A DNA stretch of 60,094 bases, filler included, from Hausera hauseri (Eukaryota), in the NCBI GenBank assembly GCA_046269625.1. It is 11 parts of 11 records of this genome, joined end to end, with 100 filler letters (N's around TTAATTAATTAA, not from the genome) between each part and the next. Parts side by side here need not be neighbours in the genome. Positions count along the whole stretch, not along the records: positions 54,943 to 60,094 come from JBJURY010321050.1; 10 more parts are not named here. The stretch is one strand, 5' to 3'. Position 1 is the stretch's first letter. Each line of letters opens with the position of its first letter. The notes beneath the pieces are model-generated. The model ran no database searches. It was given only the letters and a program-made list of their open reading frames with translations, and was not told the origin of the DNA. Position numbers and translations under genes: made by a program. Of the stretch, positions 3,931 through 60,077 are shown piece by piece.

Positions 3931-4034
3931 CTGAAATCCGTGGCCGCAAACCATGTACAGTAGATGGAAGTGAGCACACTGGGCCAACCCCCCAGGATCG
4001 AGCTCTGTCGAATAGTATAGGTCGCAAATCTGTA

Positions 4035-4462: not shown

Positions 4463-4562
4463 NNNNNNNNNNNNNNNNNNNNNNNNNNNNNNNNNNNNNN
4501 NNNNNNTTAATTAATTAANNNNNNNNNNNNNNNNNNNNNNNNNNNNNNNNNNNNNNNNNNNN
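4463..4562. other. Artificial contig linker (N44-TTAATTAATTAA-N44). Identical linkers at 11124-11223, 17012-17111, 26283-26382, 32555-32654, 37159-37258, 41610-41709, 45909-46008, 50232-50331 and 54843-54942
   Basis: Identical 100-bp spacers that place stop codons in all six frames. Confidence 0.98.
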
Positions 4563-4737
4563 CGTTTCTGTGAGCTCACATAAAAACTGTACATCAAACA
4601 CATGTCCGGTCAAAATGTCATCGGTCAATCTCTGAATTTTACTTTCAATATACTTTTCCATTCGATTTTGTGTACTAATATTGATAAAGGTTTATAGCCG
4701 ATTTATGCGACGTCTGAGACTGCAGTGGCCAAGGACA

Positions 4738-7700
4738 CGTACCTGTGTCCCGTGTGATTTATTCAAAACACATGCCCGTATGCCGACTTTTATGAGATGC
4801 ACAAGCATCATCTCGGGCCATTCACGCGGTCCAAGATGATGCTAGTGCATTGCACCATGTACCACGGTACTGCACAAGTATAGTGCATGACGTTGGTGGT
4901 TGCCATAGTGCAATGGAGCAATACTATGGCACCACAACGGTGCACAGTAAACGAACTTATGTATGTCCCGGTTGTTCTATAGCTGATGATCAAATCAACT
5001 ATGAACAATTTTATAATCAGCACCATGATCACTTAAACCAGTTTAAGCGGTCGAAAAAACAAATAATAATGGACACATCAAAAAGAAGCAGCAGCAGCAG
5101 CAGTATTCCATCAACAAGTAGGAGACGTCAGGTATCAACAAGCCTTCACAAATACTTGCAAAACAACAGAAATCAAAAGCAGCAGATGGAGCAGCAGCAG
5201 CAGGAACAGGAGCAACAGGGGGAGGAACCACGCATTACTGTCAAGTACGATCTGAAAAAATCTTACGTGGATATCAAAGTGAACATGCCAGCGACAACAA
5301 CAACAACACATTTGAGATATGTTCCATCCATTGTGCGAAACCGGTTGGAATCTGAAGTGGAAAAATTCCAACACCACCACTGCAAAGTGCAGTATTATGC
5401 ACTTGTAGAATTCTAAAACGTGCAAGGCAACATGAAACAATGGTACCTGTCACATCGAGCTGTACCACATACCGAGGATTTTATTGCTGAGATTAGCGAA
5501 AAGCTCGAGGAGAAAATCGCCAGCTACACGGAAAATGGTAGTGGATGGCGAATTGTAAAGATTGTCACTCTCGGCTTTATCATTACAAAATCGAGTTACA
5601 TGATTTACTTGTCAAGGCGATCATTCATACCGACACCTGCAGCCCTAAAACACTCTAAGTCCGTAGTGAATGTAGAAAATAATAGCGACGAATACTGTTT
5701 TCTTTACAGTATTTTGACGAAGTGCCCAGAAATCGTACAAATCGTTCAAAACAATATCGTCAGTATTTTCCGAATTGGACTTTGGTGAAAAGCTGGATGC
5801 CGATGAAACTCAAAACCATTCCGGCTTTTGAACGGCGTAACCCGACACTGTCAATCAACGTTTTCCGGTACAACTCAGTAATAGCGATACCAACAGATGA
5901 GGAAATTTACAAGAATTATCACGTGGACATAATCTATCGAAGTCGGAACCCGAATGGACGTCCAATATACCTGTTGCTGTTGGAGCATGCAGAAAATTTT
6001 CATTACGTGGCCGTAACAAATCTGGACAGACTGCTGAACATTGACCATGACCAGTTCATCCAAAAACAAATACGCGAAAAATGGGAAAAACACGTGGCGC
6101 TATGCAGACGAAACGTATCGGGAACAACAATGTACTTCACGCCCGCCAAAAAGAAGCTGAGATTCAGTGACTTCGCAAACAGACAGTCCGGAATATGTGG
6201 TTTGTGCCGATATTGAAGCAATTCTACCGCGGCACAACGTATACGATCAAAAGCACATGCCAATCACCGTCGGTATGTTGCTAGTATCAATAAAAGCCAC
6301 CGGACAACCGCAGTATTACGTTTTCCACGGATGGAACTGTCTACGTGATTTCCTGCACCAGTTGGAGGCAATAGTGGAAGCGGAAATCGCACCGTGCTAC
6401 AGTAACAACAGCACTAAGTCTTTGATTTGGATAGACGAAGACAAACGCCTTACGTTTGCAGTCACAGACAAATGCTACCTGTGCCACAAAATATTACTAT
6501 TCGATAAACAGGAACGGCTCGTACCTTATCACGACCACTTTACCGGACGATAGTTGGGAGCAGCATGCAATTCATGCAATTTAGCACGGCGTGTGCGGCC
6601 ATTCCTGCCGGTGATATTTCATAACTTAAGGGGTTATGATTGTCACCATATTCTGAAATGGGCCATTAATGGATTACCACACTGGGAGCTGTCCGTAATC
6701 CCAACAACGATGAAGAAATACCTGTCTCTGTTGCCACGCATAAACCGGTTCCAGGTGCGATTCCTTGACTAATTACGGTTCCGCAATGAGTTTCTAGCAA
6801 AGCTGGTAAATTCCTTTCCGGATGTGCCGTTAACATCAACGCAGTTTCCGATGCATATTGCACGTAGCAAAAGCATATTCTCGTATGACTTTGCTGTATC
6901 GTACGAGCAGCTTCAAACAACAGAGGAATTGCCGCCGCAGTGGCTTAGTGTAACAGAAGATGAATATCGCAGAGCACAGGAATATTAGTCAGAGCTCGGC
7001 TGCAGAAGCCTATTAGATTATATGTTCCAGTATCTGAAACTGGACGTGTAATTGTTGGCCGGCGTGTTTAATATATTTCAGACTAAGGCGTTGGCGGAAG
7101 ATGGGCTGGAGGTGCTCAACTTTTGCTCCATACCGGGAATGAGGTGGACGTCGGCTCTGATATCATTGGACTGGGACATTGAGCTGTTGCAAGACGCAGA
7201 AATGTACCGACTGTTTGATGTTGGTATTCGTGGCGGCATAACATTTTTAACAAGCACTACGTAACCAGTGATGATAACACAACATCACTGCTGTACATTG
7301 ACATTAATAATAATCTGTATGGCTAGGCGCTTTCGCAACCTTTGTCGTACGGTTTATTTGAATGGTTAAGGGACAAGCGAGATCTGGAAGCAATATTGCA
7401 AAATTTACCGAGAGTAGACACGGCAGAAAACAGCTCATTCGGCTACCTTATGGAAGTCGATCTCGTTGTACCGGATGTGTTTCATGACGATTTGGACCAA
7501 TTGCCTGTCGCCCCAATCAGCCAATGTCCGCTAGGCGGCTAAAAGGTGAAGAAACTTCTCATGACGCATGAACCGAAGCTGAATTACGTGGTCAATTGGC
7601 GTCTGCTACAGTTCTACATGCATCTCGGTGTAGGAGTCACACAGGTGCATCGCGCAATGAAATTTAATCAGGCGCCGATATTCAAGGCACACATTGACGG

Positions 7701-8503
7701 AAATTCGGAAAAACGAGCCACAGCTTGTACAAAGTTTGAAAAGGACTACTACAAGTTGAAAAATAATTTTCTCTACGGCAAGATAGTAGAGAACCTCAAA
7801 AAGCGACTCAATGTGCGCCTATGTAACAACGAAAAGCGTCTGGTTACTTACACCTACAAGGCGTAGTTCAGGCGGTCAATGCACATTGCCGATGGATTGG
7901 TTGCCATGTTGTTAAACAGGGTAGAAGTCGTACTGGACCGACCAAGCTATATCGGACAAGTGGTGTTGGATCTGAGCAAGTTGCGAATGTACGAGCTCCA
8001 GTATCACTATTTGGCGCGTTACCAGCAAATGTTCGATAGCTGTGAGATCAGTATCGTTGCCGGTGACATACAGCTTTTTTATGAGCTGAAAAACGTCAGT
8101 CGCGACGAACTGCTCCGGCAGATGATGGCAGATGGATTACTGGACAAGTCCGCTGTACAGCAATGCCATTACGAACAAAATCGGCTGCTTCAAGGATGAA
8201 AGCGAAGGCCGTGTTCAATACTGCGAATGGATATTCCTGCGCCCAGTGTTACAGTCTCCTGACGGACTGTAGACCAATACGCGGTGATTATAGTCGTATC
8301 TATGAAGCAGAAGCAGAAGACGGAGGACGACAAACAAGAGGACAATCAATGACTGTGTCAAACGACCATACGATTGATTGAGCACAAGCTGTATACTATA
8401 ACAAACGGAAAAATCGCTGTCATGTAATGAAGATAAGCGAAAGTGGGTGGGGCAAAATAAGAGTCGGGCGTATGGGCATTGGCGTTTGAAATATCACGCG
8501 TGA
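4738..8503 (+). mobile_element. Near full-length degenerate Polinton-type pPolB, family A
   Basis: YTENGSGW (terminal-protein region); NNSDEYCFLYSIL...HYVAV (vOTU-like Cys/His); VCADIEA (ExoI); CYLC...HDHFTG..GAACNSCNL (endonuclease VII-like); FHNLRGYD (ExoII); YLKLDV (ExoIII); LYIDINN.LYG (motif A); KLKNNFLYGK (motif B); PSYIGQVVLDLSK; C-terminal DKR...AYGHW. Many stops and frameshifts. Confidence 0.92.
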
Positions 8504-8788: not shown

Positions 8789-9207
8789 TCAAATCAAACT
8801 GAATTTTGACAGTTTCCACATTGAGGATTTCACGAACATCATCTCCTTGTAGCCTTTCAGCTTCAGACTTAAGTAACCTTTAGCTCCTTCAGCTTGCAAT
8901 GCTGCTGATGCTTCTCCACTTGAACGGATAATTTTCCGCATATTGCCCTTGAGAAAAAATGAGGTATCTCGAATATCTTTAGACAACTCCAAGTCATTGT
9001 CGAGTTTTTTCATTGTTTCCTCAATCGTGTTTAAATCACTGTTGTTAATTTTCTTGGGCAGCAGACCATACTTCACCTGTTTGAGTTTTATCGGTTGCGC
9101 CAACGTCAATTGAACAGGCGTTCGTAGAAAGTTCAACTTGTACCCATTGTACAACCGGGACGGTCTAACAGAATATTCGTTGTACCTGGGCTGACTAACA
9201 GAACTCG
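8789..9207 (-). CDS. Unknown PolB-A-linked ORF X, copy 1 (native start apparently lost)
   Basis: PRYNEYSVRPSRLYNGY...EGAKGYLSLKLKGYK...MWKLSKFSLI is homologous to 59601-60077 and 26383-26547. The listed ORF 8789-9364 runs on into antisense PolB-B sequence beyond ~9207. Confidence 0.75.
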
Positions 9208-17720: not shown

Positions 17721-19627
17721 TTACATGTTGGTAATTCTCTTGATTTGGTTCTTTTTGGTTGTACTGGTTTCCACTTGCCCTTGAATATCTCTTGTTACGC
17801 TTGGGGCTTCTATGAATTTCTTCTCTATGTTCTTTGAGTTTATATTTCCGGTCTGCTTATCTGTTTTCGCTGGAATTTTCGGTTTTTCGGTTTTTTTCTG
17901 TACCTCTGATTTCGCTGTTGCCGATGTCTTTACTTTTTCTGCTTCTTTCGGCGTTTCGGTTGAGCTTTTCGATTTTCCGATTACTTCTTTCCTTTTTATC
18001 AGGTAGAGATGGTGATTCATCGATTTTCTATCTTTTTGGTAAATTTTTTAATTGCTTTTTCTTTAAAGAATGCACTCGAGTACTCAACTAAAATGTAAAA
18101 CAAATAAAATCAGCATAATAAACATAATGAATATAAGATATTTCATTTATTTACAAAATTTTCATTACTTGCCTTGAGCTAACATGCTTTTAATATTCGA
18201 TTTGCGGTGCATTTTATGTTCTGACGAAATAAAAAATATCCATCGAATGTAGTCTGTGGTCAGTCATGTGCATAGTCAAAATGGAATATGCTGTTGTGAA
18301 TTAAACCAATACATTTTAGATTGACAGAACATCAAGGAAATATTATAAATCGAATATTAAAAAACAGAACGAACATGTTGTCAAAATTTCTAAACATGGT
18401 GGGGAGGAATTTGAACAAGTGCCCAATTCTATTACATTTTCATATTATCAATCATCATAATATTTTGCACATGTCTCTGATTATTTGTTATAAAAATTCA
18501 AATTCGTTTCATTGAAAGTTCAACCCATTGGGTAACGAGTTACTGATTGGTATAATCCCGTTTCTGTTGTCAATTAAACTACAATCCTACATAAATAACT
18601 ATTGCACAATGACGGCAGCTATGAGCTGTTCTCAGTTCAACATTCCTGTCAAAATTTTTTTCATAGAAAAGTTTCTGATAAAAGTTAGATTTATGTCAAC
18701 TTCGGGCAGACAGACCGTAAATTTCTGTCGAGATAATCGATTGACGATAATTTTTCATAGGTTTTGCACAAATAATTTAATGTAATTTTGACAAAATGAT
18801 GAAAATTTTCATAAATGAATGCTCAATATATGCCTAAAAACAACAAAGTAAAAGTTAAAATTTTCACGATAACTAAAGACGTTTTCACCTCCAAAGTAAC
18901 GTACATAGTAATTGAATTCTGCCTTGTAAATTAAGTGTCTGAACTAAAATATCAAAAATATGTTACATAATTGCAAGTGTTGCGTAAAATTTATGAAAAA
19001 ATCAAGAAGAATTTGAAGAGTCGTTAATCAATGAAACGATGTGAAAATACAAAGATTGCATTAATGACATAAACATTGGAATTTTACCACGTTCGACAAA
19101 TATGGTCAACTTTTCATCGTTTTGTAGAGATAAATATCTGTGTGGCACTTGCACAATATTCCATAAAACACCAATTTTATTACAATTCATAATCTCTACC
19201 CAACTCTAACCATATTTCTAAGTCTAATTCTCAAAGAAATTCAATTTTATAATCGAGTCTTACGTTCTTCATCGAGGTAGTACCCATTCATTGAACAATG
19301 TAAAGTCCCGTTTGGTACCATAAACAAAAACGTCTGTCAGCCTACAAATTCTTTGCTGTAGCGAAACTGTTTTTAGTTAATATCAAAGCGAATGTTTATA
19401 GAGGAGCTTTTGTCAATAAAAAATTAACTGAAAAAAATATTAAAATTTTTATCACCTGTAATCCATTTTATAATAAGTTACTCGACGAATTTTAATTTCA
19501 TTTGAATTATCATTTTGTCAAATTGACCATGAATATTTATCCTAGCTGCAGACTAATAATAGTCATATGATGAATGAGGTAGATCAATTTGAAACCAAGT
19601 CGCGAATGTTAATTGAAATTTTTACAG

Positions 19628-20302
19628 GTTGAAGCAGATGAACAAGAAATATCGAAGAAAATCCACGTTGGTTACACATCAAACGACATAACAATTGAAG
19701 ATTTACGTGGATTATTTGAGGATTATGGATATGTGACGGACATATTCATTCCGAAACCATTTCGAAATTTTGCATTTGTCACATTTGACTCGAGTGAAGC
19801 TGCACAGAAACTCATTGGACACACACTGAAATTGAAGGGACACAATCTGGTAATCGGCAGTGCCGTACCGAAAATCAGCAATCGTAAAAACCAACAGCAG
19901 CAACAACAACTTGGCATCTATCCGGAATCGGCCATTCCTGCACACACGTATCAGGCACGATATGCCAATGGCATGATTCCATCGTATGGTTGGCCGACAA
20001 TCGGTGTAACACAGAAAGTTCAGCAGACACCATATGGTGGTGGTTATTCAAATATGCCAATTAATCAAGGTGGTCAATCATACGTCATTGCCAATGGGGC
20101 ACGTGGCAATGAGACGTTCCAGAATTTCGGTGGTTATGAAGCCATGCAACAAGGATTTATGGCCGGTCAATTTGGTGAATATGCCAATCAAGGAACAGCA
20201 GCAAACACCGCACTGAATCTCCTCAAGAATCCCGATGTCGTGGCTGCTATTGTCGCTGCAGCTAGCAAATCCGGGACAATGCATGGGAAATTTCCCCAGT
20301 AG
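19628..20302 (+). CDS. TARDBP: Last coding exon of a TDP-43/TBPH homologue (RRM2 plus G/Q/N/Y-rich tail)
   Basis: KIHVGYTSNDITIEDLRGLFEDYGYVTDIFIPKPFRNFAFVTF...SAVPK matches TDP-43 RRM2 (DVFIPKPFRAFAFVTF...SNAEPK). Splice acceptor TTTACAG at 19621-19627. Confidence 0.88.
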   Translation, partial: VEADEQEISKKIHVGYTSNDITIEDLRGLFEDYGYVTDIFIPKPFRNFAFVTFDSSEAAQKLIGHTLKLKGHNLVIGSAVPKISNRKNQQQQQQLGIYPESAIPAHTYQARYANGMIPSYGWPTIGVTQKVQQTPYGGGYSNMPINQGGQSYVIANGARGNETFQNFGGYEAMQQGFMAGQFGEYANQGTAANTALNLLKNPDVVAAIVAAASKSGTMHGKFPQ

Positions 20303-26382: not shown

Positions 26383-26547
26383 AATGGTCAGTTCACATAG
26401 CGGAGAAACAGCAACAGCGGCAGCAGCAGCGGCAGTTTTGCCACTAAAGGAGCTAAAGGCTATCTAACATTGAAGTTGAAAGGATACAAGGATCTGCATG
26501 GCGTTAAATCACCAAAATGGAAGCTGGAAAAGTTTACGCTGATTTGA
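26383..26547 (+). CDS. ORF X copy 2, C-terminal fragment (frameshifted)
   Basis: GAKGYLTLKLKGYKDLHGVKSPKWKLEKFTLI* is nearly identical to the C-terminus of 59601-60077. Confidence 0.8.
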
Positions 26548-26798: not shown

Positions 26799-29440
26799 TT
26801 ATTCCAAACGACAGTGTACGTACTCCCAACTCTTATTCCGCCCCACACACTTACGCTTATCATCATTGCATGATAAAAGGACTTTTGTACTGCTCACCTT
26901 ATACAGCTGGTGCTCAATCGATCGGATGATCGTTTAAGACAAAACAGCCTTTGTTTATCCTCCGTTTTCTCCATCACAAATATGGCGATAATCACCGTGG
27001 TTTATTTCCGTTGGGCCAACTGAACTCCTTTGGCGCGCATTTTCGGCCCACCATCAGTTAAAAGAGTAAAACATTTTGGCCGTAGAAATACCCATTCCCC
27101 ATACTAAACCCCCATTTTTACTTTCATCCTTGAAGCCGTTGATTTTGTTTGTGATGGCATAGCTGTACAATGGATGATACTGTGGGTAATTGGACGTGTT
27201 CAGTAATCCGTCTGCCATCATTCGCCACAGTAGTTGATCGCGACTGACGTTTTCCAGTTCCATGAAAAAATTGTCTATCTCAGCAGCAATTATATTGATC
27301 CTGTGCCGCCGCCAAACATTTGCCGGTAACGTGCCAAATCGCAATACTGCAGCTCATAAATTCGCAACTTTCTCAGATTCAATACCACTTGCCCTATATA
27401 ACTTGGCTGCTCCATTACGACTTCTTCCCTGTTTAAAAGCACGGCAACCAATCCATCGGTAATATGCATTGATCGTCTGAACTGCGCCTTGCTCGTGTAC
27501 GTGACTAACCGCTTTTCGCTATTGCGCAGGCGTACATTGAGCCGCTTTTTTAGATTCTCTACTGTTTTTCCGTAGAGAGAATTATTTTTCAGTTTATAAT
27601 AGTCTTTTTCAAACTTCGTACAAGCCGCATCTCGTTTTTCCGAAATTCGATTGATACACGCCTTGAATATCGGCGCCTGTGCGTATCGGATTGCACGATG
27701 CAGCTGTGAGACGCCTACACCAAGCTGCATGTAAAAATGCAACAGACGCCCATGAACTATGTAATTTTGTTTAGGTTCATGCGTCAAAATCAGCTTCTTC
27801 ACCTTTGAGACTGGCGGACATTGGCTGATTGGTGCGACCGGCAGTTCATCCAGAAAGTCATGCAGTTTATCTGGTACAACGAGATCGAATTCCATCAGGT
27901 ATCCGATTGAGATGTTTTCTGTTGTGTCTGCTCTCGGCAGATTTTCCAGTATTGTGTCCAGGTCGTGTTTGTCAACTACCCAGCCATACAGGTTATTAAG
28001 GTCGATATACAACAGTGATGTGGTATCATCACTGGTTACATGATGCTTGTTGACAAATGTCATGCCTCAGCGAATACCAACATAAAAACATTCGGTACAT
28101 TTCCGGGTCTTGCAGTAGCTGGATATCCAGATCCAGTAACATCAGAGCTTATGCCCAACTCATTTCGGATACTGAGTAAAAGTTGAGTGGCTCCAGCCTA
28201 TCTTCTGCCAACGCTTTAGCTCGAAATGTCTGAAATACATAGGCTACAGGTACACATCCTATTTCAGATATTAAAGTATGTACTCCAACAGGTTTCTGCA
28301 GCCGAGCTCTGTCTAAAACGACTGTGCTTTGTGATATTCTTCTTCTGTGATACCGGGCCATGGCGGTGGTAGTTCGTCTGTCGTTTGGAGCTGCTCGTAC
28401 GATATCGCAAAGTCATACGAGAATATGCCTTTGCTACTTGTAATGTGTACAGAGAACTGAGTCAATGTTAGTGGCACATTTGGCAAGGCATTTTCCAGCT
28501 TTGTCAATGATAAATCAAAGAATCATACCTGGACCGGTTTATACAAACAGACAGTGACAGGTATTTCTTAATTGTAGTCGAAATTACGGATAATTCCCAG
28601 TGCGGAAATCTGCTTATTGCCAATTCCAAAATATGGTGACAACCATAACTTCTGAAGTTATGAAATACCACTGGTAGGAATGGTTGCACACGCCTTGCCA
28701 AATTGCGTGAATTCCATGCTGCTCCCAAGTATTGACCGGTAAAATGATCGTGATCTGGTACGAGCCGTTCCTGTGCATTGTATGGTAATATTTTGTGGCA
28801 CAGGTAAAAATCACCGGTGTTTGCAAACATCAACAGTTCATATTCATCTGTTCACATCAAGGATTTATTACTATTATTACTGTACCAGGGTGCAACTTCC
28901 GTTCCTACTATTGTTTCCAATTTATGCGGGAAATCACGAATACAGTTCCAGCCGTGGAAAACGTAATACTGAGGTTGAACAGTTGCTTTTATTTGGACAA
29001 CCAACATACCGACAGCGGTTGGAACATGTTTTTGGTCACATATGTTGTGCCGTGGTAAAAAAGCTTCAATATCGGCATATGCTACGTATGCCGGGCTGTC
29101 TGTTTTGATCACTTAGTGAACCTGAGCTCCTTTCTGACGGACATGACATACATTATGGTTCCTACCGAATTTTGACTTCACAGAGTCTCATGTTTCTCCA
29201 ATGTTGTTTCTGATCTGAATCCATGCAGACATACAGGACACCATTTACACTGTATCCATTTTTTGAAGAAGTGGTCACGTTCCATGTTCAGCAGTCTGCC
29301 CTGATTTGTCACTGCAACGTAATGATACTTTTCCTTTTGCTCTAATAGCAACAAATTTATTGGGCGGACATTTTGGTTCCGACTACGATAGATTATATCC
29401 ACATGAGGATTCTTATAGATTTCTTCATCTATTGGTGTGG
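26799..29440 (-). mobile_element. Degenerate pPolB family A, copy 2 (5' truncated)
   Basis: HYVAV, YADIEA, DHDHFTGQYLGAA, FHNFRSYG, LYIDLNNLYG, KLKNNSLYGKT, PSYIGQVVL. Closely collinear with 5900-8503. Confidence 0.92.
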
Positions 29441-32400
29441 CTTAAGGCAAATAATATCCACCGATCAAGAATGATTGACGAAATAGAATGACAAAGGACT
29501 GTAAAACAAAAAAATCACATTCAAAATGGTCAATAGTGAATTAAAATTCAAAACGGTGAAAACTCAAGTTTTATTTCATATTAAAACAAAATTTCTTTCT
29601 TATCACATAGATTACATCATTGTAAAATTCACGGTTTCATTAATTGAACAAGAGATTCGCAGATCAAATCATGAAAAACCATTGTAAAATTTAACGATAC
29701 TCGACCAAGAGAGGTGTACATAAAAAATTTGGAAATCAAATTGAAGCATGAAACAAGTGCAAAGTTGCAAAGAATGTCAATGTTTGATAAAGTCTGTTGA
29801 AATAAATGCACAAAATTGTATTACGAAATTACGGACAATAAACATCGACCAAAGTGATATCATACAAAGTAGAAAATGTTTCCAATTAAATAAAAACTGT
29901 CAAACGACACGAAACATATCGAGAGATTATAATGTAAAAGTTTCTGATTACGCTTGGTGACCTGGGAATCTGCAGAATGTTCGAATATACAGTCTTTGAT
30001 TGACAATGATCTGATTTAATAAAGACTAAATTTGACCAAGCTGGATGGAAAATCAGAATACATTAACCGTACCAACTAGAAATTGCAACAGTGATTTCTG
30101 GACTGAGTTTGAAACAATGTTATCGGCAAAATGAATACTATGAGCCTGACGATCAAGTTGATTTTACAGGCGTATCTAAAAAATTGATTTTTCTATGATG
30201 CTTCAGAAACTGTCTGCAATATGGTGAAATTTTTCAAAATGGAATTCATCATTGAACATTCCTTCAATGAGCTGAGTTTCGTCATGAATTTTCCGGTGCA
30301 GTCACACATTGCAACGTTTTCAAATCGGCAAACAAATAGACCATTTTCGTTATGAACTTTGACTCTTCCGATGTAGCTTTGGTTTTTGGAGTAAAAAGAT
30401 GTTCCCTTGGTCTATGAAGTGGTTCGAATGCAATTCCATGCCTTAGTCGTACTACGCGTTTTTGTCGAAGTCGATGTCGCATAACGCGTATAGAATTTTA
30501 TTAAAGATTTTCGATATTTTTCTGAATTACATTTGATCCGATCAGAGAGGGGATTTTTTGGGAAATTGTGAAGAATAAAACATTTTTTGTTAACCTTTGT
30601 CAGTGGACATTTGTTTACATACAGATTAGAAGAACCGAAAGGTAATCGAGCAAATATCAAGGCGTTTCCATTCGTCTCTTCAATATATTGATAAGCTTCT
30701 GAGTTAAAAGGGTAGTTTGGGTATTTAACTCCCAAACTTATACTACTAAACTAACTTTAGGAGAAGTCTTGAGTTTTTATTTCCTCAAGACAAAGAATAT
30801 TGTATTCAATCTTAAAAGCAGCCTGTGGGGTCTGCTTGATTTTATTTAACTTTATTGTGGGTTCGGTCAGGAAGTACACTGGCCAAACTAACCTTTACTT
30901 TTATCGATTTAAACGAATTCCTGATGGTTACGTATTAGGTAAGAAAAATTATAATTTTGGGTTATAGACCTCTTAAATAAAGTGATACATTTATATCAAA
31001 AATAAATATAAAAAGAATTTTATCAATAAGGTTTAATGATATTTATAATACAATTTACAATATACAGAAAACTTACAGCAATCTATCATACTTGAAGACA
31101 TTCAAAAATTGTGGGTCTTTCATATGAATTTGATAGAGTATATATATAGTTCCAAAATCATTAAAAATTCCAAATAAATCATGCAAAATTAAAGAAAATT
31201 CCCGAATAAATCGTGACAAATTATGGAAAATTACTATAAAATTGTACACGAAATAATGATAAAATTTAGAATGCCACAATAAAATCAAATAATTAAAGTT
31301 CACATTATTATTAATAGTCACACAATTCCGTGATCAATAATCATCACAATTGAAAGTCACAAAATTTCAAGTTGATCATTACAATTGAAAGTTACAAAGT
31401 TTCAAGTTTCGACAGTACGGTTACTTTATTAGGTAACAAAGAAATTCTAAACAGTTATCATATCCAAATTTTACCGATCGGCACAAAGTTGCATTTCAAT
31501 AATCGAATATTCAGAATCTGATGCTCAAATACACCGAAGATGGACTAGTTAAATACAGTACATATTTATTACAATGGAGTCGCGAGGGGGTTGTATTAGA
31601 ATAATCTGATTCATCCAACACTTCATTTCAGCCTTCAACTTTTTGTTTAAATAATGAATTTTTTGGCGAAGAAAAAAGAAACTCTTTCACTTTCACTTTC
31701 ACTGACATCTTGTTTCGATTTTGATTAACTGTAGAAAATCATCAAATTATTTTTTTCATTCTGAACCTTTTCCGATAAATTTTAATTAATCCAGATTTTT
31801 CTTGTAAATCCATTTTTTCAGAGTTTTGCGATGAATTACATGATGTCCAGAAAATCCCCCATTTACTTCTGTACCGTTAAATCTTGTACGGTAATTAATT
31901 AAGTTCCATTTCAAAGGTCAATTAGCTACAATGAAGAAATTTATAATTTTGGTAATTGTAGATAGGAGTAATGATGTTTAGACAAAAAGATTCGTCGAGA
32001 TTGACTCCTGAATATAGACGTTGAGATGGATAGACTTTTATTGAATTTACAACTATGCTTCGTTGAATGACTTGCGCAAATCTATTACGTAGCACATTTT
32101 ATAATAAGTAGAAGTTCTCGTGGAACTCCATTTCTAAATATACAAAAAGTTTAGAAAATGTTTTCACATTTTTGGGGGCAATATTTCAATACTGTAATAA
32201 GGGAACTCTCATTGTAGTGACCAATATGCAATTGTGAAATTATTCATGTAGATAGATAATGTCATGAGAATTTCATAACTAATTTCAGGAACTTGACAGA
32301 AGTATTTAAAGGATTCTGTCAGACATGAAAAGTAATTCAAAATTTTCTTAACTTTTATATGTATATAGTTAAATTATGATATGTACACATAGACAACATT

Positions 32401-50331: not shown

Positions 50332-50728
50332 TAAACGACAGAAGGTTCGGTTGCGTGTTGGTCATATCTGTTAAAGGTTCTCGAACGTCTTTCGGCGCAG
50401 ACGTTAGGTGTTTGATGGCAGATAAAACATCACTTTGCAAGGCGACGAGTTGCTCAAACTCTTCATATGTAAGGGAGATCCCAGTGTTTGTTGGAAATTT
50501 TTTTTAGTTTCCCCCAAAGTATCTTCTAACATGTATCAACACTCTGTTTCGATACGAGGAAACTGTAACTAGCTTCGCCGGACCTATCGGTTTTGCCAAG
50601 GCCGAGTCACCAGTCATGTAAACGTCATTGGCAATTTGTGTAAACATTTTGAAAAAACAGACCCTCTGGGTGTGTGCAACTCGATTATATACCATTATAA
50701 CCGGTTTACGCCGGATGTGTGACGTCAT
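50332..50728 (-). CDS. PC4-like ssDNA-binding protein of the Maverick (one in-frame stop)
   Basis: KLVTVSSYRNRVLIHVRRYF...*..FPTNTGISLTYEEFEQL matches the PC4 signature V.V..f.g...i.iR.y....P.kkGIsL..e.w..L. Confidence 0.8.
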
Positions 50729-51215
50729 AGATTTTTATACCACCTGAGTTTCCCCGCAGCCAAGGTCGGATGAGATGCCAAATGAGGCTATCATTGACGT
50801 GTTGTCTCATTGAGGAAAAACACATGGTGACGCGTCGCATGCTCCCACCTCTGGCTTTGATGAGGATAAAATAAATGGCGTAGAGCCCGCAAGCATTACT
50901 AAACACATCTTGTATGGTGTGCCCATTGTAGACCGGTTCTCTGGTAGAATTTCGTTTAATGAAATCCAAAATGTCGGCGTGCAGCGGTGGGAGGCCAAAA
51001 AAATCAAAATAATGAAACGTGCCCATGCCATCAAAGTAAAGGGCTACCCAATGCGTACCAGGCAGATCGCTGGGGTCGGTATTTATGACAAAGGCCGCCG
51101 GCTCTGTCGGGTCGATGCGTTTGGGTACCATGTCTCGGGGTATGACTCTGACAGGATGTCGGCGGACGAAAATGTCAGATTGTAAAATTGTTTGTATCTG
51201 TCGAGTGTCCATCAT
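50706..51215 (-). CDS. Maverick adenain-like cysteine protease (peptidase C5)
   Basis: Open 169-aa ORF with INTDP...PGTHW, YFD.FG and Q.....ACG.Y catalytic motifs. Confidence 0.93.
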   Translation of the reverse strand: MMDTRQIQTILQSDIFVRRHPVRVIPRDMVPKRIDPTEPAAFVINTDPSDLPGTHWVALYFDGMGTFHYFDFFGLPPLHADILDFIKRNSTREPVYNGHTIQDVFSNACGLYAIYFILIKARGGSMRRVTMCFSSMRQHVNDSLIWHLIRPWLRGNSGGIKIYDVTHPA

Positions 51216-52425
51216 TTAAGCCACAAAGTCCAGTAACACTTGTCTGGTTTTGGAAATTTCAATGATATAGACTTGCTCAGCGTACACCACCACTTGTAAA
51301 GGGTCGGGCATCACAGTGGAGGGCAGTTTTTCGCTAATTCAAACTGGTCCCCGTCCAAAAGGCTGGGACTTAGGTCGAAAACGTAGAGGGCGTAACCGTC
51401 TTTGAAACTGTTGTAGTCGACGTCGCAGCCAGTGTCCTTACCGATCAGACCCATGGCTAGACTGGTACCAAAGAAAGCATGGGTGTAATGGTCGCGGTCG
51501 AAGTCTATCATTAGCGGCTTTTCGGTGGTCGTCCTCCCATCGACGGTGACGATGAGTACATCAAACCGAAATGTTGAAAGTTGAACGGGTTATTTCTATA
51601 GGTCCCATTAAAGGCCGAGGAATTTACTATACCTAGCACGATTCGCGTCGGGGTTTGACTGAAAAAAAACGATTGTTTTGAATGTGCGACAACATTCCTC
51701 TGGGTACGAACAATGTCTTTATCATGACTCGTTTGATGGGGTATTTCATGTTCGCCGTCACCAACACTTTTTCATGGGCCAGAGAGATGGCCGGGTGTAA
51801 CTTGCCTTTTCTGACCACCAGGACGGCTGAAATTATAACTGATTTGTAACCTACCGCGGGGTCCTCGGCTATGAGGTTGAATGAGTCTTTAGAAGGGGTG
51901 AGTTTGATTTTTACGTCCACCCCATTCAGCATGTAACAGTCTTGGGTGAAAATGGCAGCTTTGGTTTTGTCGAAAAATTTTGGCGTGTCGTTGTAGTACA
52001 GGGCTGCCGTCAGGTGACCCCTCTTGGCTTCCCGCCCGTAATTTAAAACCATCTTGAGGTAACATCTGAAAGGGTAAGTGTTCTTGCTCGGCGTGATTAA
52101 CGTGTCGTTCAGGGCGATGTCAACTTGGGAAAATAAACTGTGCAGGTAATTGTTGACCAGGGCCACTTCGGCACCGTCGGGTAAATTGTCGCCATTGGCC
52201 AAAGCGACTTTGACTCTCACATGTACAAAAGTATTAAACAAATCCAGATACTCTTCACGGCTTCCCGATATTACAAATTCTATGGGGGGCCCCGTGCGCA
52301 AGAGAAGCGAGAGGGTGAATTTCTACAAACTGTCCTTCCTCTACCGCCGTTTGCGTGGGAGGAACGCTAAACTAATCCAAACCCGAGTGGAGACATTCGC
52401 AATTGCCGGGGTGAATAAGAGCCAT
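51216..52425 (-). pseudogene. Maverick major capsid protein (hexon/PY), degenerate
   Basis: LD*FSVPPTQTAV, GPPIEFVI.G..EYLDL..T, VNNYLHSLFSQVD, YPFR.Y, MLNGVD, YPIKRV, GYALYVFDLSP, VVYAE...I...RQVLLD. Confidence 0.9.
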
Positions 52426-52427
52426 TA

Positions 52428-52909
52428 TTAATCAAAGATGTCTGAATGCTGCTGCTTCTTTACTCGTCGTTTCTTGGACTCGTTGTGAGAACCGATCCGG
52501 TCGACGGTTGGTTTTATTCTTTTATTAAGGGTTCGCCGGGCGGCACGGCTTTTCTTTTACGATGCAGGCCACCACCCAATTGGTTGCCGGTCACATGATT
52601 CACGGCCCCTTGCAACAGTCTCTGTCCGGCTTCTTTGGCTCGATCTCGGAAGGCTTCGCCTACGTTTTTACCTGTTAACGTGTCCTGGGCCACTTTCAAA
52701 CCCGTCCTGACACCTTCCCTGATTAAAGCTTTTCTGCCTGTTGTTAACCACGGCAATATTATTCAGTCCAACCTGCTAAAGAAACTGCCAATGCCTCTTC
52801 CTCGTTGACATCTGCCGCCGACGAAAATGGGGATGCCGTCTCCCGCTTGACTGGTGTAAACGTCTTTGTAAACTTCTGCTCTTCGATGTAAAGGAGTGTG
52901 TCTGACCAT
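52428..52909 (-). pseudogene. Maverick basic core-like protein (QRGxGIG family), degenerate
   Basis: YTSQAGDGIPIFVGGRCQRGRGIGSFF, followed by a basic C-terminus ending DIFD. Lies between penton and hexon. Confidence 0.75.
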
Positions 52910-52911
52910 CT

Positions 52912-53685
52912 TTATTGAAAATTGGAATGTCTCTTGGGTCGAAAATGTTACGTCACCATCGAAGAACCGTTCACGAATGGGATATTTTGTCCCAGGTCGT
53001 TGGTTAAAAGTATTTCCACGGTGTCAAAGGAAAAGTGACTCAGTGGCAGGTAGTGGGGTTTGTCGTAAATTCTAAAGACCGAAACAAAATTTCTGTCCAA
53101 CATGGGCACCGTTCATAACAAAGGTACGATGATATCTCCAACTGGTCTCACGGCAACGATATCACAGTACACGAACACGTTTCTTATGTTGCTGTCCAAA
53201 TTGTCTTGCGCTTTACCCACTTGGAGAGGGTCCTTGTCCATTATGTGGGTTTTTGCCAGGCCCAATATATTTTTCAACTTGTCGCTGATGACGACATCCG
53301 CCCCCGCCTCGAATCTTTCCAGCAAGGTGGTTTTCTGCATTTTGTGGTAATGGATTTTCAACATGGGCAGTTCGCCGCTCTTTGCTCGTGAGGTAAACTG
53401 TTTGTTTAATTCGTCAAAAACATCGGAGGGTGACTTGTACAGGCCGGGTCTTAGTGTAATTTCAAACGACGGCTTGGTGTCATTCACGTGAGGGTGGTAA
53501 CATAACCACACTTCGTTCTCTAGCACGTTAAAGTAACTGTTTGTGAATTCACTCTCTGCCAAACCCACTTTGTATTGTGAGTTCAAGTCTATGGTTTGCA
53601 GGAGTTTCACGTAAAAGTGTTCGGGTCCGTTATCGGGAAATGTTTTCATAGAGGCATTGCTCAGCAGAGTCACGTAAAAACTCAT
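52912..53685 (-). pseudogene. Maverick minor capsid protein (penton/PX), with stops in the C-terminus
   Basis: MSFYVTLLSNASM..FPDN, VGLAE, VFVYCDIV....VGD...PLL, Y.KPHYLP, IPF..G...VT.HFR. Confidence 0.9.
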
Positions 53686-53703
53686 CGCAAGCTCGTCTTT
53701 GGA

Positions 53704-53925
53704 TTAGGACAGATAACCGAGAGAACTGCACAGTAAAACTATCCACAGCTTGTTTTCCTGATCGTTGCTCGTAGTCAGATTGAAGAGAGACATGCAGATG
53801 ACGGTATATATCGCCAACAGTTGCGAAAAAAACACGACTTCTACGCTAGGAACTAGTTGACCAAACCAATATGTGATGGGTCTTCTTTCTACTATTTCGT
53901 TGAGGGGAGTGGCTTCTTCAGCCAT
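53704..53925 (-). CDS. Small two-TM Maverick protein
   Basis: VVFFSQL.AIY.VI..SL.NLT......LW..LL.SSLGYL. Hydrophobic, located between integrase and penton. Confidence 0.7.
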   Translation of the reverse strand: MAEEATPLNEIVERRPITYWFGQLVPSVEVVFFSQLLAIYTVICMSLFNLTTSNDQENKLWIVLLCSSLGYLS

Positions 53926-53927
53926 GA

Positions 53928-54842
53928 CTATTCTTTATATCTCGAAATGTGTTTTCCCGAAATCCAACTGTTGAATGAAGAATTATATCCGAACCATTTC
54001 ACTAAATATTCTTTACCGCCCGCCATTCGCCTTTCTCGCACTGCACTTCTTATTCTGTAAACTTATTTGTCTCCCACTTTTTGGATCTCTTTCTTGTAAA
54101 GCGAACATAAAAGTTCTTCACCGCTATCGTCTTTGAGCACATAAGGTATTGGGTTCATCGCATTTATGCGAGACACTGTAAACACTTCTTCCGTCCACAC
54201 CAGAGTGTAGCCTTTCTTAAAATTTTGTCTGGCTTGAGTGAGGTGGACGCGGTCTCCTTCCGTAAACGCTTTTCTGCCGACTGCATCGGGAGACGAATAT
54301 AAATTGTTCCACACAACTTCTTGATTGCTCAAATTTACGTTGGCGGGAGCCATGCGTATACTCTTGAGATAAGATTCGTTGTAATTTAAAAGTAAATCGT
54401 CGTTGGCGTCTACGTAGCGAAGCCCGATTGTTTTGGTAAAGTATCACCACATTTTTTCTTTTAAAGTTCGGTTAAAGTGCTCCACCACGGCTGCCTTGAC
54501 ATCCTCATTTTCCATTGTGAAGAAACGCACCCCTCGGTCTTTGAGAAACTTGAGGAATGTTTTGTTTAGAAATTTGCTGCCTTTGTCTGTCTGTAGCACC
54601 ATGGGTTTGCGTTTGGCAAATATTTTTCTCACGGCCTCAACGAGCTAATTGCCCGTTTTCTTCTTTATTGGAATCGCCCAACCGTATTTGCTAAATACGT
54701 CTATGCATGTCAGTAGGTACGACATTCCGTCATTAAATGTTTTTAACGTTCTCATATCTATCAGATCGGCCTGAAACTTGTGACCCATGCCGCCCGTCAC
54801 GATCGGTCGCCTCTTAAATTTGCGACGAATGGGTTTATGAAG
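53928..54842 (-). pseudogene. Maverick retroviral-like integrase with C-terminal chromodomain
   Basis: HKPIRRKFKRR, FQADLIDM, YLLTCIDVFSKYGW, LQTDKGS.F, KAAVVEHFNRTLK, FKKGY...W..E.F, YLVKWFGY...FNSWI. Confidence 0.92.
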
Positions 54843-55145: not shown

Positions 55146-57825
55146 TTACATTGCAACATGTCCGTAAGATTGTGTATGGATTCCATCACCTAGGATCTGC
55201 CTCTTGTCATCCATCCAATCTAGGCTTTTCTTCTGTAATGTTACTATCTCAGTGTTATGAGTCCTTACTGGATCCTTCGCATCACCGATATGATATAAGT
55301 CTGCTCATGCAGAACTCTAACATAGTCTTTGAAGCCAATCTTCTTTGCTGAGGTCGCCCTTTGAACCCATTTAGCCCGCTTCTTTACATGGTTACCTATA
55401 TAAATGGCATACATTTTGGACCTAAGAGCCACAAATCTCTAGATTATTGTCCCATTCACCTCGTTTTTGAATTTCCCAAAGATCTTTTTGTCGATAACTG
55501 AATAGTTGGGATGTTACTTCAAATAATCCGAGGTATCAATGTCATATGCCAATTGTGCAAAGTCCTTATAAATATCATCTGTATGAATCTGATAGATGAA
55601 ACTATCCGTATCCATATACATCAGCTGCGTGGATTCGAATTTGTGCGCCATGATATTATAGTGGAATCTGTACATCAAGGTCTTTGAGAGGTCGAGGATT
55701 GCCATACCCACATATATAGGCTTGTTGAATTGCAAAGATGTTTTCAGCATATGGATGTTGACCAAGTTCTCAGCATATATGGTGCTGCTGTGGAAATTGG
55801 GCTTGGCAATGAGTTTCTTTGCCCGCTTCCAGTCACATACCAGCTCGATGTTGATGCTGTTGCGAATATTCTCCATGGTCTTGCCAAAGACCGAGTTGTT
55901 GTAAAGCTTGAATTGATCCTTCTCAAAGTCTTTCTTGGCATTAGTCCGCAGCTTCGTACTGAGATCTATGTATTACTGCAGCCATATGGACTGGCTGAAC
56001 TGCAGGGCTCTATGGATCTTAGTAATGCGGAGTCCATTTCTGACCGCCTACTGGAGATTTATGTAGTGGATTGCATACCTTGCTCTACTATCCAGATGGC
56101 AGAGCAGTTTTCTATGCTTTCCTCGGGGCGGAGGCCTGCTCTGGATATTGTATGTCCACATCCACTATGTATTCCGTATCTCCAGTGAGATCCAGGTCCA
56201 GTATAGGGATGTTTTCGGAATGCTCGACCCACTTGAAGTTATCATATGGCAATGGGGCGCTCATTGCCCATCCATATAGGTTGTTGGCATCCAGGTATGA
56301 TATATATGACGATTCCTTGGATGGATCATACTGGGCCATATACTTGTTGCTGGCCTCGATATACCGGTGAATGGCCTGGCATATTCCACCTCTAATGCCT
56401 CTCTCAATCATGAGTATAATGTTGTAATCTTTTATGATCTGCAGACAGACTCCTGTATATCTCAGTATATCTGCCTAGCTCATCCCTGGAGCCGTAAAGA
56501 AATGAGCCGGATCCAATGCATGGCTCTTGATCGTAACATCCCTGAAACTCTCAAAGACATCCGTCAGAAGCAGCACGTCCGTCTTGAGGTATATGTCGCT
56601 CTATTCCCCTAATGTTCAGCATTGAAATGCATGCTAGACTTTTTGAGCATGTTGGTAGTCATCATCACTGATATCGGAATCAGAGAGGATATTGTAAAAG
56701 TCCTTTGCCGGCAGTATTTCCCATGATGTTATATAGTCATAGGGAAACATGCCTTTCCTCTTGACGAGGTCAAATGTAGTAGGGAAGAACCGCTTCGTTT
56801 CCTTGAGTTCTTCTGCAGGGAGGTTCTTCACTAAACTGTCAAGTGAAGACGACATGAAACGAAAACTGTCTACGAAGCGAAGCCTGATTTTCCCAATATG
56901 CTCGGTAAAGATGATATACTTCTCCTCACTATTAGGGATCACCTCAATGTTTCCTTCAATGATGCCCAGTTCCCGAACAATAAAATTGGAATCATAGCAA
57001 CTGAGATTATGGAACACTACAGGCACATATTTACATGTTTTGCAACGCAGATTGCAGTTGTTGCATGCCACACTCCCATATATGCCTGTAAAATGGCAAT
57101 GATCCCTGACTTTATAATTATCCTTAGTGAATGATTTGGAGCACAAGTAACATGCTGTTGCCTTGCGCCATTCTTCGTCTTGCTGCTTCGATATTCTCAT
57201 GTCGTCCTTATGCTGATGCTGCATATCTCCAATCCTATGAGCCATATCTTCAAGTCGTTTCATGAAATGTGCTGCTGCGCCTGGACCTCTGAATAGAAAT
57301 GGTTCACTGTCCAGTCCCTTGGCATATGATGAGAGCTCATGATATTGGTATGCCGTTGTGCTGCTATGTTGTGGATTAGGACTGCAACTATGTACTGGGC
57401 GCAGAATAGCTTCAAAGTCGCAATAGATAACTATTGGGACCTTGTATTCTTCTCGAATTCCTTGAATTCAATGTAATCCTCTTTTTGAAAATCTGGCCTT
57501 ATATAATAATTATTGTTGCAGTACATCTTGCGCTCTTTCAGCTTCAATACAGCTACATCGCCGCTGAAATGGGACAAGCATCATTTATATATTTCTATTT
57601 GTCCATGATGTTTCGTAATTTGTGATCTGACTAGCCGATCAGAGTCTTTGATCCAAACATAATGTTTCTTTTCTCCATCATCTAGTAGGAACAGATCCCT
57701 ATGATCTTCCAATTCAGCATCACATCTGCCAGGGATAGAATTTGTCATCCTCATCGAATCCCAAGATATTGATGTACATGTTGACATTTCCAAATTTTTA
57801 ACTTCATCTATGGATGGAGGTTATA
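55146..57825 (-). mobile_element. pPolB family B, vOTU region to C-terminus, degenerate
   Basis: HYVWIKD, YCDFEA, RDHCHFTG, YLKTDV, GIRGG, YLDANNLYGWAM, KLYNNSVFGKTMEN, YMDTDS, DDKR...SYGH. Confidence 0.93.
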
Positions 57826-59265
57826 ACTGTGTGTGAGTGAGATATGTTTGAAAAGAGATGTTTGGTTAGAAAATGTAAAAATATATAGAATGTGGAATTA
57901 AATCACAAGTTATATAATTGTGACGCAACCCCCGTAGATGTTCATAGAGACAGACGAGGAGGAGGATAGTATATGGACACCCATATACATGCAAGTATCT
58001 GCACATGTGTATTTATATGTAAAGGTATTAATGGAAAGAAATAGGGCAAAAGGAAATTTTTATCACAAATGGATTAAAAATATTGAAATAATAATTTAAA
58101 TATTTAAAATTTGAATGTCTTCTATAACTATAAAGGAAAGAAGTTAGAATGTCTTATCAGTCTAATCAAAGTCAAAAGTTGTTTTTCTGTGGCAATGTCT
58201 ATAAATTTCAATACAAAGGAGGAAAGGATGTTAGAATCTTACGGAAATTGGAATTAGATTTACTCTGGATCGTATCACGAATGATAAAAATGAGATTATT
58301 AAGCTTAATATCAGAAAGAAGGCTAAATTGGAATTTATTTCACACTACTGATGAAGATGTTTAACTACAGGTCATCTGTATTAATAGAGCAAATGATTCC
58401 TTGAAAAATGTTGGGGAATTGATAGACGTGGGCAGACAAACTTATGTATTGTTTAAGTTAAGTGGTGGATACACAACAAACAATATTAAGATAGATGGTT
58501 CTTGGTATTTACATACACCGATCAATCATCGAGACTCGTATAGTGAGGTATGTGAACAAAATTGATTCAGAATGTTACCCCGACGAAAACTAATCTTTGA
58601 TAACATGGGATATTACTTAACGAAGAACTCGACTAAGATACACAACGGAGACAACGATACTCTGGTTATTTATCAGAGGTGTTGGGTCTATCCTCTCATT
58701 GAATTCTGTGAAGATGTCTCACAAAACAAAACTGATTCGAAACGCTCTAAGTGGAGTCACCGACAGGCACTACTAGATTCGTTGAAAAGATCTCGATTCA
58801 TTGACTTCGGAGCTATAACGTACTCTCATGTAAATGTTGCTGGTGATCATAGAGGTGAATGGAGGTTGTTATATGGGCTCAAAGGTATTGTTTATTGTAC
58901 TTATTCTCGTTTTTATTCCTTGTCTTGTTCTTTGAGCGTTGGCGGGGGTTGGAAACAATGTGTAGGTATGTATGTGATTACATTGATGATTGATGAGGTC
59001 TGTGTGGTTGTAATGGGGCTAGAATCAGGGGTTAAGAAAGGAGCTATATGTATTAGTTGGCTGAAGTCTGGTGGGAAGTCGTATAAATTCGTAGACAAAA
59101 CACTACTGGATGGGGACGAAAATAATTATGGGCCTAGCTTAATGGAGTTCGTGTTTATTGATAGAATGGTTGTAGTTTCTGTGTCTGGATGAGAATGCCG
59201 GTGCAAAAAGTAATAAAGGTCATGTTAACACGAACTCATTATATAATAGTTATAAAGATTCTCCA

Positions 59266-59373
59266 TTGTATACGGTGACCAATCCAAAAGTCCCTTTTCC
59301 ATGCAATGATGATAAGCGTAAATGGATGGGACGAAATAAGAGTTGGGCGTACGGACATTGTCGTTTGGAATAA
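59266..59373 (+). mobile_element. C-terminal remnant of pPolB family A
   Basis: LYTVTNPK...DDKRKWMGRNKSWAYGHCRLE* matches the 3' ends at ~8390-8503 and 26799-26910. Confidence 0.8.
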
Positions 59374-59600
59374 AACACACGCATGAATTCGGTGCAGATA
59401 GATCATATTACTGTGACAATTCATTGTGATCTGCTTGTTTTATATAAATAATGTATATTATTCGTTGTATTTGCCTTTTGTTTTATTATCATTTAATTTA
59501 TCTATTTAACTTAATGTGACGAGAAACGATGTGAAAAACAAACAAACAAAATCAATAAAATTTATTACTATTCGTAAGGTAAAATCAAAAACAAAGTAAG

Positions 59601-60077
59601 TCAAATCAACGTAAGCTTTCCTATCTTCCATATTGGTGATTTAACGCCGTGAAGATCCTTGTGTCCTTTCAATTTCAATGTTAGATGACCTTTAGCTCCT
59701 TCCGGTGGCAAAACTGTTTTTACCGCTGCTTCTGCTGTTTGTTCGCCATGTGAACTGATAATTTTCGCCATATTTTCTTTCAGAAAAATCGACGGTGTAT
59801 TTCGAATATCGTTACTCAACGCCAAATCACTATCAACTTTTCTAATTGTGTTTTTCATAGTATCCAAATCATCATCGCTTATCTTTTTCGACAATATACC
59901 ATATTTCACTGGTTTGATTTTGACCGTTTGCGTTAATGGCAATTGAACAGCGTTGCGTACATAATGTAAGTTGTATCTATTATACAACCTGGAATTTCTG
60001 ACCGAATATTCGCTGTACCGTGGCTTTTTTGAGAGACTCGCGGAACTGTCACCTGTTGAATTGTTTTGCAGAGACAT
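59601..60077 (-). CDS. ORF X copy 3, intact 158 aa, function unknown
   Basis: Open from ATG to stop. Homologous to 8789-9207 and 26383-26547. Convergent with the PolB-A 3' end. Confidence 0.8.
   Translation of the reverse strand: MSLQNNSTGDSSASLSKKPRYSEYSVRNSRLYNRYNLHYVRNAVQLPLTQTVKIKPVKYGILSKKISDDDLDTMKNTIRKVDSDLALSNDIRNTPSIFLKENMAKIISSHGEQTAEAAVKTVLPPEGAKGHLTLKLKGHKDLHGVKSPIWKIGKLTLI

What the first reader, a model, noticed from the sequence alone, without database searches (positions are those of the whole stretch)
59266..60077. Conserved convergent PolB-A / ORF X cassette, three independent copies; ORF X is an unknown protein, possibly an SSB
Seen: in three contigs (8503/8789, 26799/26547, 59373/59601) the PolB-A stop faces the ORF X stop across a 230-290-bp AT-rich spacer. 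ORF X is intact here and open over ~140 codons in copy 1. It matches none of the core Maverick genes I know. Inference: the C-terminal G.KG.L.LKLKG.K...G..SP.WK...L pattern of alternating beta strands resembles the end of OB-fold, T7 gp2.5-like ssDNA-binding proteins, which would suit strand-displacement replication. With the novel N-terminal domain, this defines a distinct replication module.
Basis: partly seen in the sequence, partly recalled or inferred. Interest (0 to 1): 0.7.

Follow-up and report, generated by a model that had tools for sequence, protein, structure and literature searches.

The report
Maverick transposon's tail-less ssDNA-binding protein
This small gene belongs to a very common, decaying virus-like transposon; its predicted shape matches phage T7-type single-stranded-DNA-binding proteins, so it likely coated exposed DNA strands while the transposon copied itself, and the transposon carries a second, divergent copy of the gene.

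Summary
The three stop-to-stop junctions are real (spacers 285, 251 and 227 bp, 74% AT). The SSB guess holds. The AlphaFold model (pLDDT 79) best matches Enc34 SSB, T7 gp2.5, ASFV CP312R and DUF2815 (Z 7.4-7.8, next hit 4.7), and many giant-virus proteins. The family's G-Y-K motif aligns weakly with T7's DNA-stacking Tyr158. Unlike phage SSBs, ORF X has no acidic tail (pI 9.9). Between subfamilies dN/dS is 0.32.

The 'cassette' is overstated. ORF X is the last gene of an accessory block (TBP-like, a second ORF X paralog, dUTPase, RING) in a full Maverick with integrase and capsid-module genes. The genome holds at least 150 scored copies per subfamily, out of thousands of candidates. An open frame here is what neutral decay gives. 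At this locus only 108 bp of PolB-A survive. The PolB N-terminus carries the motifs of the known TP-vOTU layout.

An 'SSDBP' label already appears on two published adintovirus maps, and this scan found a Polinton gp2.5-like SSB on other DNA. Verdict: a new, tail-less, duplicated variant of a known kind; binding is untested.

The parts
59601..60077 (-). ORF X, copy 3: 158-aa predicted gp2.5/CP312R-type OB-fold protein; basic; no acidic C-tail; His at 139 where 49 of 60 genomic copies have Tyr
59374..59600 (.). 227-bp AT-rich spacer between the facing stop codons, with AATAAA on both strands (likely shared 3' end region)
59266..59373 (+). Last 108 bp of PolB-A (protein-primed family B polymerase), all that remains at this locus
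57820..59265 (+). Separate low-copy repeat that ends in ...CA exactly at 59265 and interrupts PolB-A; not part of the Maverick unit
8789..9203 (-). ORF X, copy 1 (second subfamily, 55% identity); 5' end cut by a PolB-B fragment from about 9204
5100..8503 (+). PolB-A, copy 1, broken; N-terminal part with TP/vOTU-type motifs; start approximate
26383..26547 (+). ORF X, copy 2: C-terminal end only, cut by the end of the stretch
26799..29442 (-). PolB-A, copy 2, broken (Pfam DNA_pol_B_2 E 2.9e-4 on one piece)

Best explanation
ORF X is an accessory gene of a high-copy, now decaying Maverick/Polinton, and it likely encodes a compact T7 gp2.5-type single-stranded-DNA-binding protein for the element's replication.

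Shown: the gene order, the copy number, past purifying selection, the lack of an acidic tail, and a second paralog (X2) in the same element.

Predicted: an OB barrel with a long helix (68-81) directly after the second strand, and a G-Y-K motif at the end of strand 128-142 in the position of T7 Tyr158-Lys159.

Inferred mechanism: the protein-primed PolB starts at the ends and displaces one strand. ORF X protein would coat that strand by base stacking (Y139; Y35, F/Y39, Y59 and W150 are also conserved aromatics) and by phosphate contacts (K58, K140), protecting it until second-strand synthesis. Without an acidic tail it would bind tightly and would not recruit the polymerase through a tail. The facing stop codons reflect gene order, not a separate module.
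For: Model: pLDDT 79, pTM 0.69.
VIA over 48,161 chains: the top four are all of this fold class: Enc34 SSB Z 7.8 (rmsd 3.2, 113 aligned), T7 gp2.5 7.7 (3.2, 111), ASFV CP312R 7.6 (4.2, 132), DUF2815 7.4 (3.3, 110); the next is 4.7.
Foldseek PDB ranks 1-9 are the same proteins plus 4jg2. BFVD gives 34 hits at E<=1e-3; the named ones among them are large-DNA-virus proteins. The Atlas, queried with ortholog P0001, points to Nucleocytoviricota clusters, some carrying DUF5871/DUF2738.
hhalign puts G-H/Y-K on T7 P157-Y158-K159 (E 0.0012). With a gp2.5 profile the score is 21.4, against a maximum of 17.4 in 60 shuffles and 17.3 in 9 unrelated proteins. Tyr158 is needed for ssDNA binding (PMC5686142).
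Among 18 remote homologs: G138 17, Y139 13, K140 16, Y35 16, K58 15.
Between-subfamily dN/dS is 0.32; the shifted frames give 0.92-1.19, except the antisense frame that shares third positions, at 0.44.
Against: No binding assay exists, and a shared fold shows no function. Z under 8 is common for that search, and no PDB Foldseek hit reached E<=1e-3.
The sequence link is weak: probability 19.5 with one alignment and 2.8 with the larger one; there is no meaningful alignment to Enc34 ORF6.
There is no Pfam, NCBIfam or PHROG family for ORF X.
The acidic tail is missing, and tail-less Enc34 SSB binds dsDNA as well as ssDNA (PMC5686142), so ssDNA preference is not assured.
This copy has His at 139. 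Linkage to a polymerase outside this genome could not be seen.
Confidence: 0.72

Rival explanations
1. It has the same fold but works as a general nucleic-acid binder, for example a basic core or genome-condensing protein, or a transcription helper beside the TBP-like gene, with no ssDNA preference.
For: pI 9.9, net charge +12, no acidic tail. Removing the tail of Enc34 SSB abolishes ssDNA/dsDNA discrimination. It lies in a block with TBP-like, dUTPase and RING genes.
Against: All four top structural matches belong to the gp2.5-type SSB class, and the stacking aromatic position is conserved.
Confidence: 0.16
2. It acts mainly as a strand-annealing or recombination helper (panhandle formation, excision or integration intermediates), not as a replication coat.
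For: One phage record names its gp2.5 homolog an ssDNA binding and annealing protein. Annealing by T7 gp2.5 is otherwise recalled. The element keeps two paralogs.
Against: Nothing here separates annealing from coating, and strand displacement creates a direct need for coating (inference).
Confidence: 0.07
3. The OB fold was repurposed for protein-protein or host-modulating work and no longer binds DNA.
For: Only 6-12% identity to the solved SSBs; its upstream neighbour is a RING gene.
Against: Aromatic and basic residues are conserved over 18 remote homologs, in register with T7 Y158/K159.
Confidence: 0.05

Closest known systems
T7-type SSBs: T7 gp2.5 (1je5), Enc34 ORF6 (5odk/5odl), DUF2815 (4klk, 4jg2)
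   Same: Predicted OB barrel with a long helix after strand 2; aromatic plus lysine at the end of strand 4 in register with Y158/K159.
   Different: No acidic C-terminal tail, pI 9.9; about 120-aa core; extra N-terminal strands (30-47); eukaryotic, protein-primed replicon; two paralogs per element.
Large-DNA-virus gp2.5-like proteins: ASFV CP312R (8hw5, 7yeq), DUF2738 (PF10927), DUF5871 (PF19196)
   Same: CP312R aligns over the longest range, 21-158; BFVD and Atlas hits point here.
   Different: Those are mostly 180-450 aa; ORF X has no Pfam hit to either DUF; it is carried by a Maverick, not a giant virus.
'SSDBP' on Alpha adintovirus maps (PMC8502044, Suppl. Fig. S2; labels next to the Hydra and Stylophora rows)
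   Same: An ssDNA-binding gene annotated in animal polintons; the same figure also labels dUTPase, IAP and MAEL genes.
   Different: Only the label was seen, with no sequence or fold, so homology to ORF X is untested; it is not discussed in the main text.
SSBs of protein-primed replicons: phi29 p5 / Bam35 ORF2, PRD1 P12/P19, adenovirus DBP
   Same: Same inferred job beside a protein-primed polymerase.
   Different: These are non-OB or only remotely OB-like (10.1101/2021.03.25.437074); none appeared among the top fold hits.

Membership tests
T7-type (gp2.5/DUF2815) SSB | OB-fold barrel structurally grouped with 1je5/5odk/4klk | tested here: met
   Predicted model; Z 7.4-7.8, rmsd 3.2-3.3, 110-113 aligned; next unrelated hit 4.7
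T7-type (gp2.5/DUF2815) SSB | Long helix directly after strand beta2 (hallmark per PMC5686142) | tested here: met
   E60-64 then H68-81 in the model; the strand numbering is my reading
T7-type (gp2.5/DUF2815) SSB | Stacking aromatic at strand 4 (T7 Y158, Enc34 W150) | tested here: inconclusive
   Weak profile alignment puts position 139 on Y158; Tyr in 13 of 18 homologs and 49 of 60 copies, His in this copy; no residue-level structural alignment was available
T7-type (gp2.5/DUF2815) SSB | Long acidic C-terminal tail | tested here: not met
   0 D/E in the last 15 residues of both window copies, and the chain ends at the last strand; at most 5 D/E in P0001-P0024; T7 homologs have the tail
T7-type (gp2.5/DUF2815) SSB | ssDNA-preferring binding | not testable with these tools
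   Needs an assay
DUF2738/DUF5871 large-DNA-virus SSB-like | Profile hit to PF10927 or PF19196 | tested here: not met
   0 of 22 and 0 of 25 alignment members at E<=1
DUF2738/DUF5871 large-DNA-virus SSB-like | Shared fold | tested here: met
   BFVD 34 hits at E<=1e-3; Atlas TM 0.62-0.70 by query, under its naming bar
Maverick/Polinton (adintovirus-type) | pPolB plus rve integrase | tested here: met
   DNA_pol_B_2 E 2.9e-4; rve E 5.7e-7 plus chromo; both are fragments below the Pfam cut-offs; joined through overlapping loci
Maverick/Polinton (adintovirus-type) | Capsid proteins, packaging ATPase, adenain protease | tested here: inconclusive
   The protease matches the window's Peptidase_C5 gene (E 7e-6 and 2e-4). 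The MCP-like gene matches the gene beside that protease (E 2e-18). MCP, minor capsid and ATPase names rest on recalled motifs; Pfam gave nothing
Maverick/Polinton (adintovirus-type) | Terminal inverted repeats and 6-bp target duplication | not tested
   The assembly is too fragmented; the element's ends were not mapped
Adintovirus 'SSDBP' | Sequence homology to the labelled genes | not testable with these tools
   Only map labels were readable; Fig. S1 (slides) had no reader, and no accession table was in the part held

The most novel reading that the evidence does not exclude
Animal Mavericks carry an undescribed family of tail-less gp2.5-type SSBs, akin to those of giant viruses, and this lineage uses two paralogs with divided labour. 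X is the basic DNA-coating unit. X2 has moved the acidic, aromatic-tipped regulatory tail to its N-terminus, and possibly forms a hetero-oligomer with X that links displaced DNA to the protein-primed polymerase.
Probability: 0.15. Interest if true: 0.68.

Novelty: new variant of a known kind. Interest (0 to 1): 0.42.

Why it matters
Protein-primed strand-displacement replication needs a way to protect the displaced strand. The papers I read on polinton polymerase architecture and adintovirus genes do not describe a polinton SSB in their main text. A 2021 preprint treats protein-primed genomes as lacking typical OB-fold SSBs. A gp2.5/CP312R-type protein in an animal Maverick supplies a small, testable candidate and adds a replication gene shared with large DNA viruses. 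The missing tail and the paralog pair raise a clear question about how it is regulated. The effect is moderate: the fold class is known, and an SSDBP label is already on two adintovirus maps.

Tried and rejected
Sequence libraries gave nothing for ORF X: Pfam, NCBIfam, PHROGs, PDB sequences, phage records by tblastn, and the single-sequence protein search (0 of 21 candidates).

Gene context of remote homologs was not obtained. All cluster members listed were unnamed. The Atlas gave no usable hit for the X2 ortholog.

The fold of the PolB-A N-terminal region failed (pLDDT 35) and was not searched. No RNA holder was listed.

Within-subfamily dN/dS is 0.46-0.50 against 0.64-0.72 in the neutral simulation. 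I do not take this as ongoing selection: the 30 copies per subfamily were the best protein scorers, internal branches are included, and stops occur at near-neutral numbers.

Rejected ideas: a stand-alone 5-kb PolB+X element (homology runs on for more than 6 kb upstream of X); ORF X as a minor capsid protein (OB fold; other genes in the element look like minor capsid genes); host domestication of this copy (it is no more intact than chance).

The Kazlauskas and Venclovas 2012 paper was not held; it is cited only through PMC11253617.

Full report
OBSERVATION. The window is a pack of 11 stretches from one 869-Mb, highly fragmented eukaryotic assembly. The spacers are 285, 251 and 227 bp and 74% AT. 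ORF X is open for 158 codons from 60077 to 59601. Two details weaken the picture. At this locus only 108 bp of PolB-A remain: 5' of 59266 lies a different repeat, and the four other copies that I inspected across this point also end there, with unrelated flanks. In one public run, summed contig depth jumps from about 100 to about 20,000 at that boundary (contigs only, and possibly the source sample). In copy 1 the start of ORF X is replaced by a PolB-B fragment.

COPY NUMBER AND DECAY. Searches of the own genome scored 150 matches for copy 3 (from 3548 candidates) and 151 for copy 1 (from 4055). The top 30 of each are 70-85% identical to the query, and many carry stops. Of these, 13 of 30 and 11 of 30 are open, with a mean of 0.97 stops; a neutral simulation gives 27-50% open. 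The open frame here therefore needs no special explanation. Between the two subfamilies dN/dS is 0.32, and differences by codon position are 0.31/0.24/0.42. The shifted frames give 0.92-1.19, apart from the antisense frame that shares third positions (0.44). ORF X was thus a real gene under purifying selection while the element was active.

CONTEXT. I examined the top 30 loci per subfamily plus 20 hand-picked long contigs, dropping 4 duplicates and the 2 window loci. PolB-A faces ORF X in 30 of 31 and 4 of 10 loci with enough downstream DNA. A RING gene precedes ORF X in 18 of 24 and 14 of 14 loci. Overlapping loci give this order towards PolB: protease, MCP-like, pX-like, two minor-capsid-like genes, integrase (rve plus chromo), small gene and ATPase-like gene on one strand; then TBP-like, X2, dUTPase, exonuclease-like, RING and ORF X on the other strand; then PolB-A facing them. 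The capsid, ATPase, pX and exonuclease names rest on recalled motifs. X2 is a paralog of ORF X (hhalign probability 97.9, E 3e-13). It has TBP-like upstream in 11 of 11 loci and dUTPase downstream in 9 of 9, out of 19 loci of which these had enough flank. The junction is therefore one gene boundary in a full Maverick, not a two-gene module.

HOMOLOGS. A profile of 22 open copies found 18 proteins at E<=1e-3 among 1.84 billion; a second round added 10. Apart from one ortholog at 54%, they are 17-27% identical to ORF X, 102-224 aa long and unnamed. Conserved in the 18: Y35 (16), L40 (17), K58 (15), F/Y59 (15), G138 (17), Y139 (13), K140 (16), P148 (16), W150 (12). Their gene context could not be read.

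FOLD. AlphaFold2 on 37 rows gave pLDDT 79 and pTM 0.69. VIA ranked Enc34 SSB, T7 gp2.5, ASFV CP312R and DUF2815 at Z 7.4-7.8, then dropped to 4.7, with many other OB proteins below. Foldseek ranked the same set first, without reaching E 1e-3, and gave 34 BFVD hits at E<=1e-3. The Atlas, queried with P0001, pointed to Nucleocytoviricota clusters, some with DUF5871/DUF2738. The hallmark long helix after strand 2 (PMC5686142) is present. Profile alignment places G-Y-K on T7 P157-Y158-K159. The signal is weak but lies above 60 shuffles and 9 unrelated proteins; Enc34 ORF6 did not align. The acidic tail of the phage proteins is absent and the pI is 9.9.

MECHANISM. Shown: gene order, selection, composition. 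Predicted: fold and stacking position. Inferred: coating of the strand displaced by the protein-primed polymerase, by aromatic stacking and lysine contacts (0.72). Rivals: a general nucleic-acid binder (0.16; tail-less Enc34 binds dsDNA too), an annealing helper (0.07), or a non-DNA role (0.05). Because the tail test fails, I say it works like a T7-type SSB and do not file it as a member.

PolB-A N-TERMINUS. It has a G-S-G-W stretch, then C-F-x-Y-S-I and a later H-Y-V, and it matches the PolB-B N-terminus weakly. This fits the TP-vOTU layout described for polinton polymerases; the link from these motifs to those domains is recalled. My fold of the region failed. The 'novel domain' is unsupported but not structurally excluded.

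LITERATURE. What I saw: PMC5686142, parts 1-3 of 5. PMC8502044, passages, section 3.2 and the text of Suppl. Fig. S2, where 'SSDBP' is written twice, next to the Hydra and Stylophora rows; Fig. S1 was unreadable and may show what that label is. Passages only of 10.1101/2024.03.18.585575, 10.1101/2021.03.25.437074 (65), PMC11253617 (51: T7-like SSB in gamadviruses and four large-DNA-virus families), 10.1101/2022.07.28.501842 (45: a DUF2738/5871 gene in a figure legend on polinton-like virus maps) and PMC6431247. Seven searches listed no paper describing a gp2.5-type SSB in animal Mavericks; several listed papers were seen only as listings, and most subscription papers are not held. One unchecked scan note reports the same kind of gene in another genome; I had stated my reading before seeing it.

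VERDICT. New variant of a known kind; interest 0.42.

Noticed in passing
L109:9-710 (-); L062:1083-1765: Paralog X2 (about 235 aa) has an acidic N-terminal motif ending in WxWLF, kept in the outside orthologs P0002 and P0020, followed by a basic stretch. It has 150 scored copies from 3732 candidates.
   Followed up: partly
L062:657-3484: Accessory block: TBP-like (Pfam TBP 6e-10), X2, dUTPase (2e-19), a gene resembling DEDD/MAEL-type exonucleases (recalled; no Pfam hit), RING (3e-7). A Maverick-borne TBP-like gene may deserve its own look.
   Followed up: partly
window 57820-59265: Low-copy repeat (47 matches) with two unknown reading frames (about 58140-58570 and 58580-59192), ending in AATAAA...CA like an LTR. 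It joins a PolB-B fragment to the PolB-A remnant with no evident target duplication: possibly recombination or an assembly chimera.
   Followed up: partly
L117:612-1453 (+): GAPDH-like reading frames and a kinase-like fragment (about 1942-2196) lie right beside Maverick capsid-module genes; names are from recalled motifs. Either captured host genes or flanking DNA.
   Followed up: no
L117:2702-3604 and 3908-4678 (-): Two minor-capsid-like genes in tandem after the integrase (recalled motifs; no Pfam hit).
   Followed up: no
window 50332-54842: Integrase, capsid-like and adenain (Peptidase_C5, E 1.3e-5) genes of a different, GC-richer Maverick family.
   Followed up: partly
window 4600-5100; L071:213-737: Small CXXC-rich reading frame upstream of PolB-A, at the place where adintovirus 'Oncoid' genes lie.
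   Followed up: no
window 19613-20302: RRM_1 reading frame (E 1.5e-9), unrelated to this finding.
   Followed up: no
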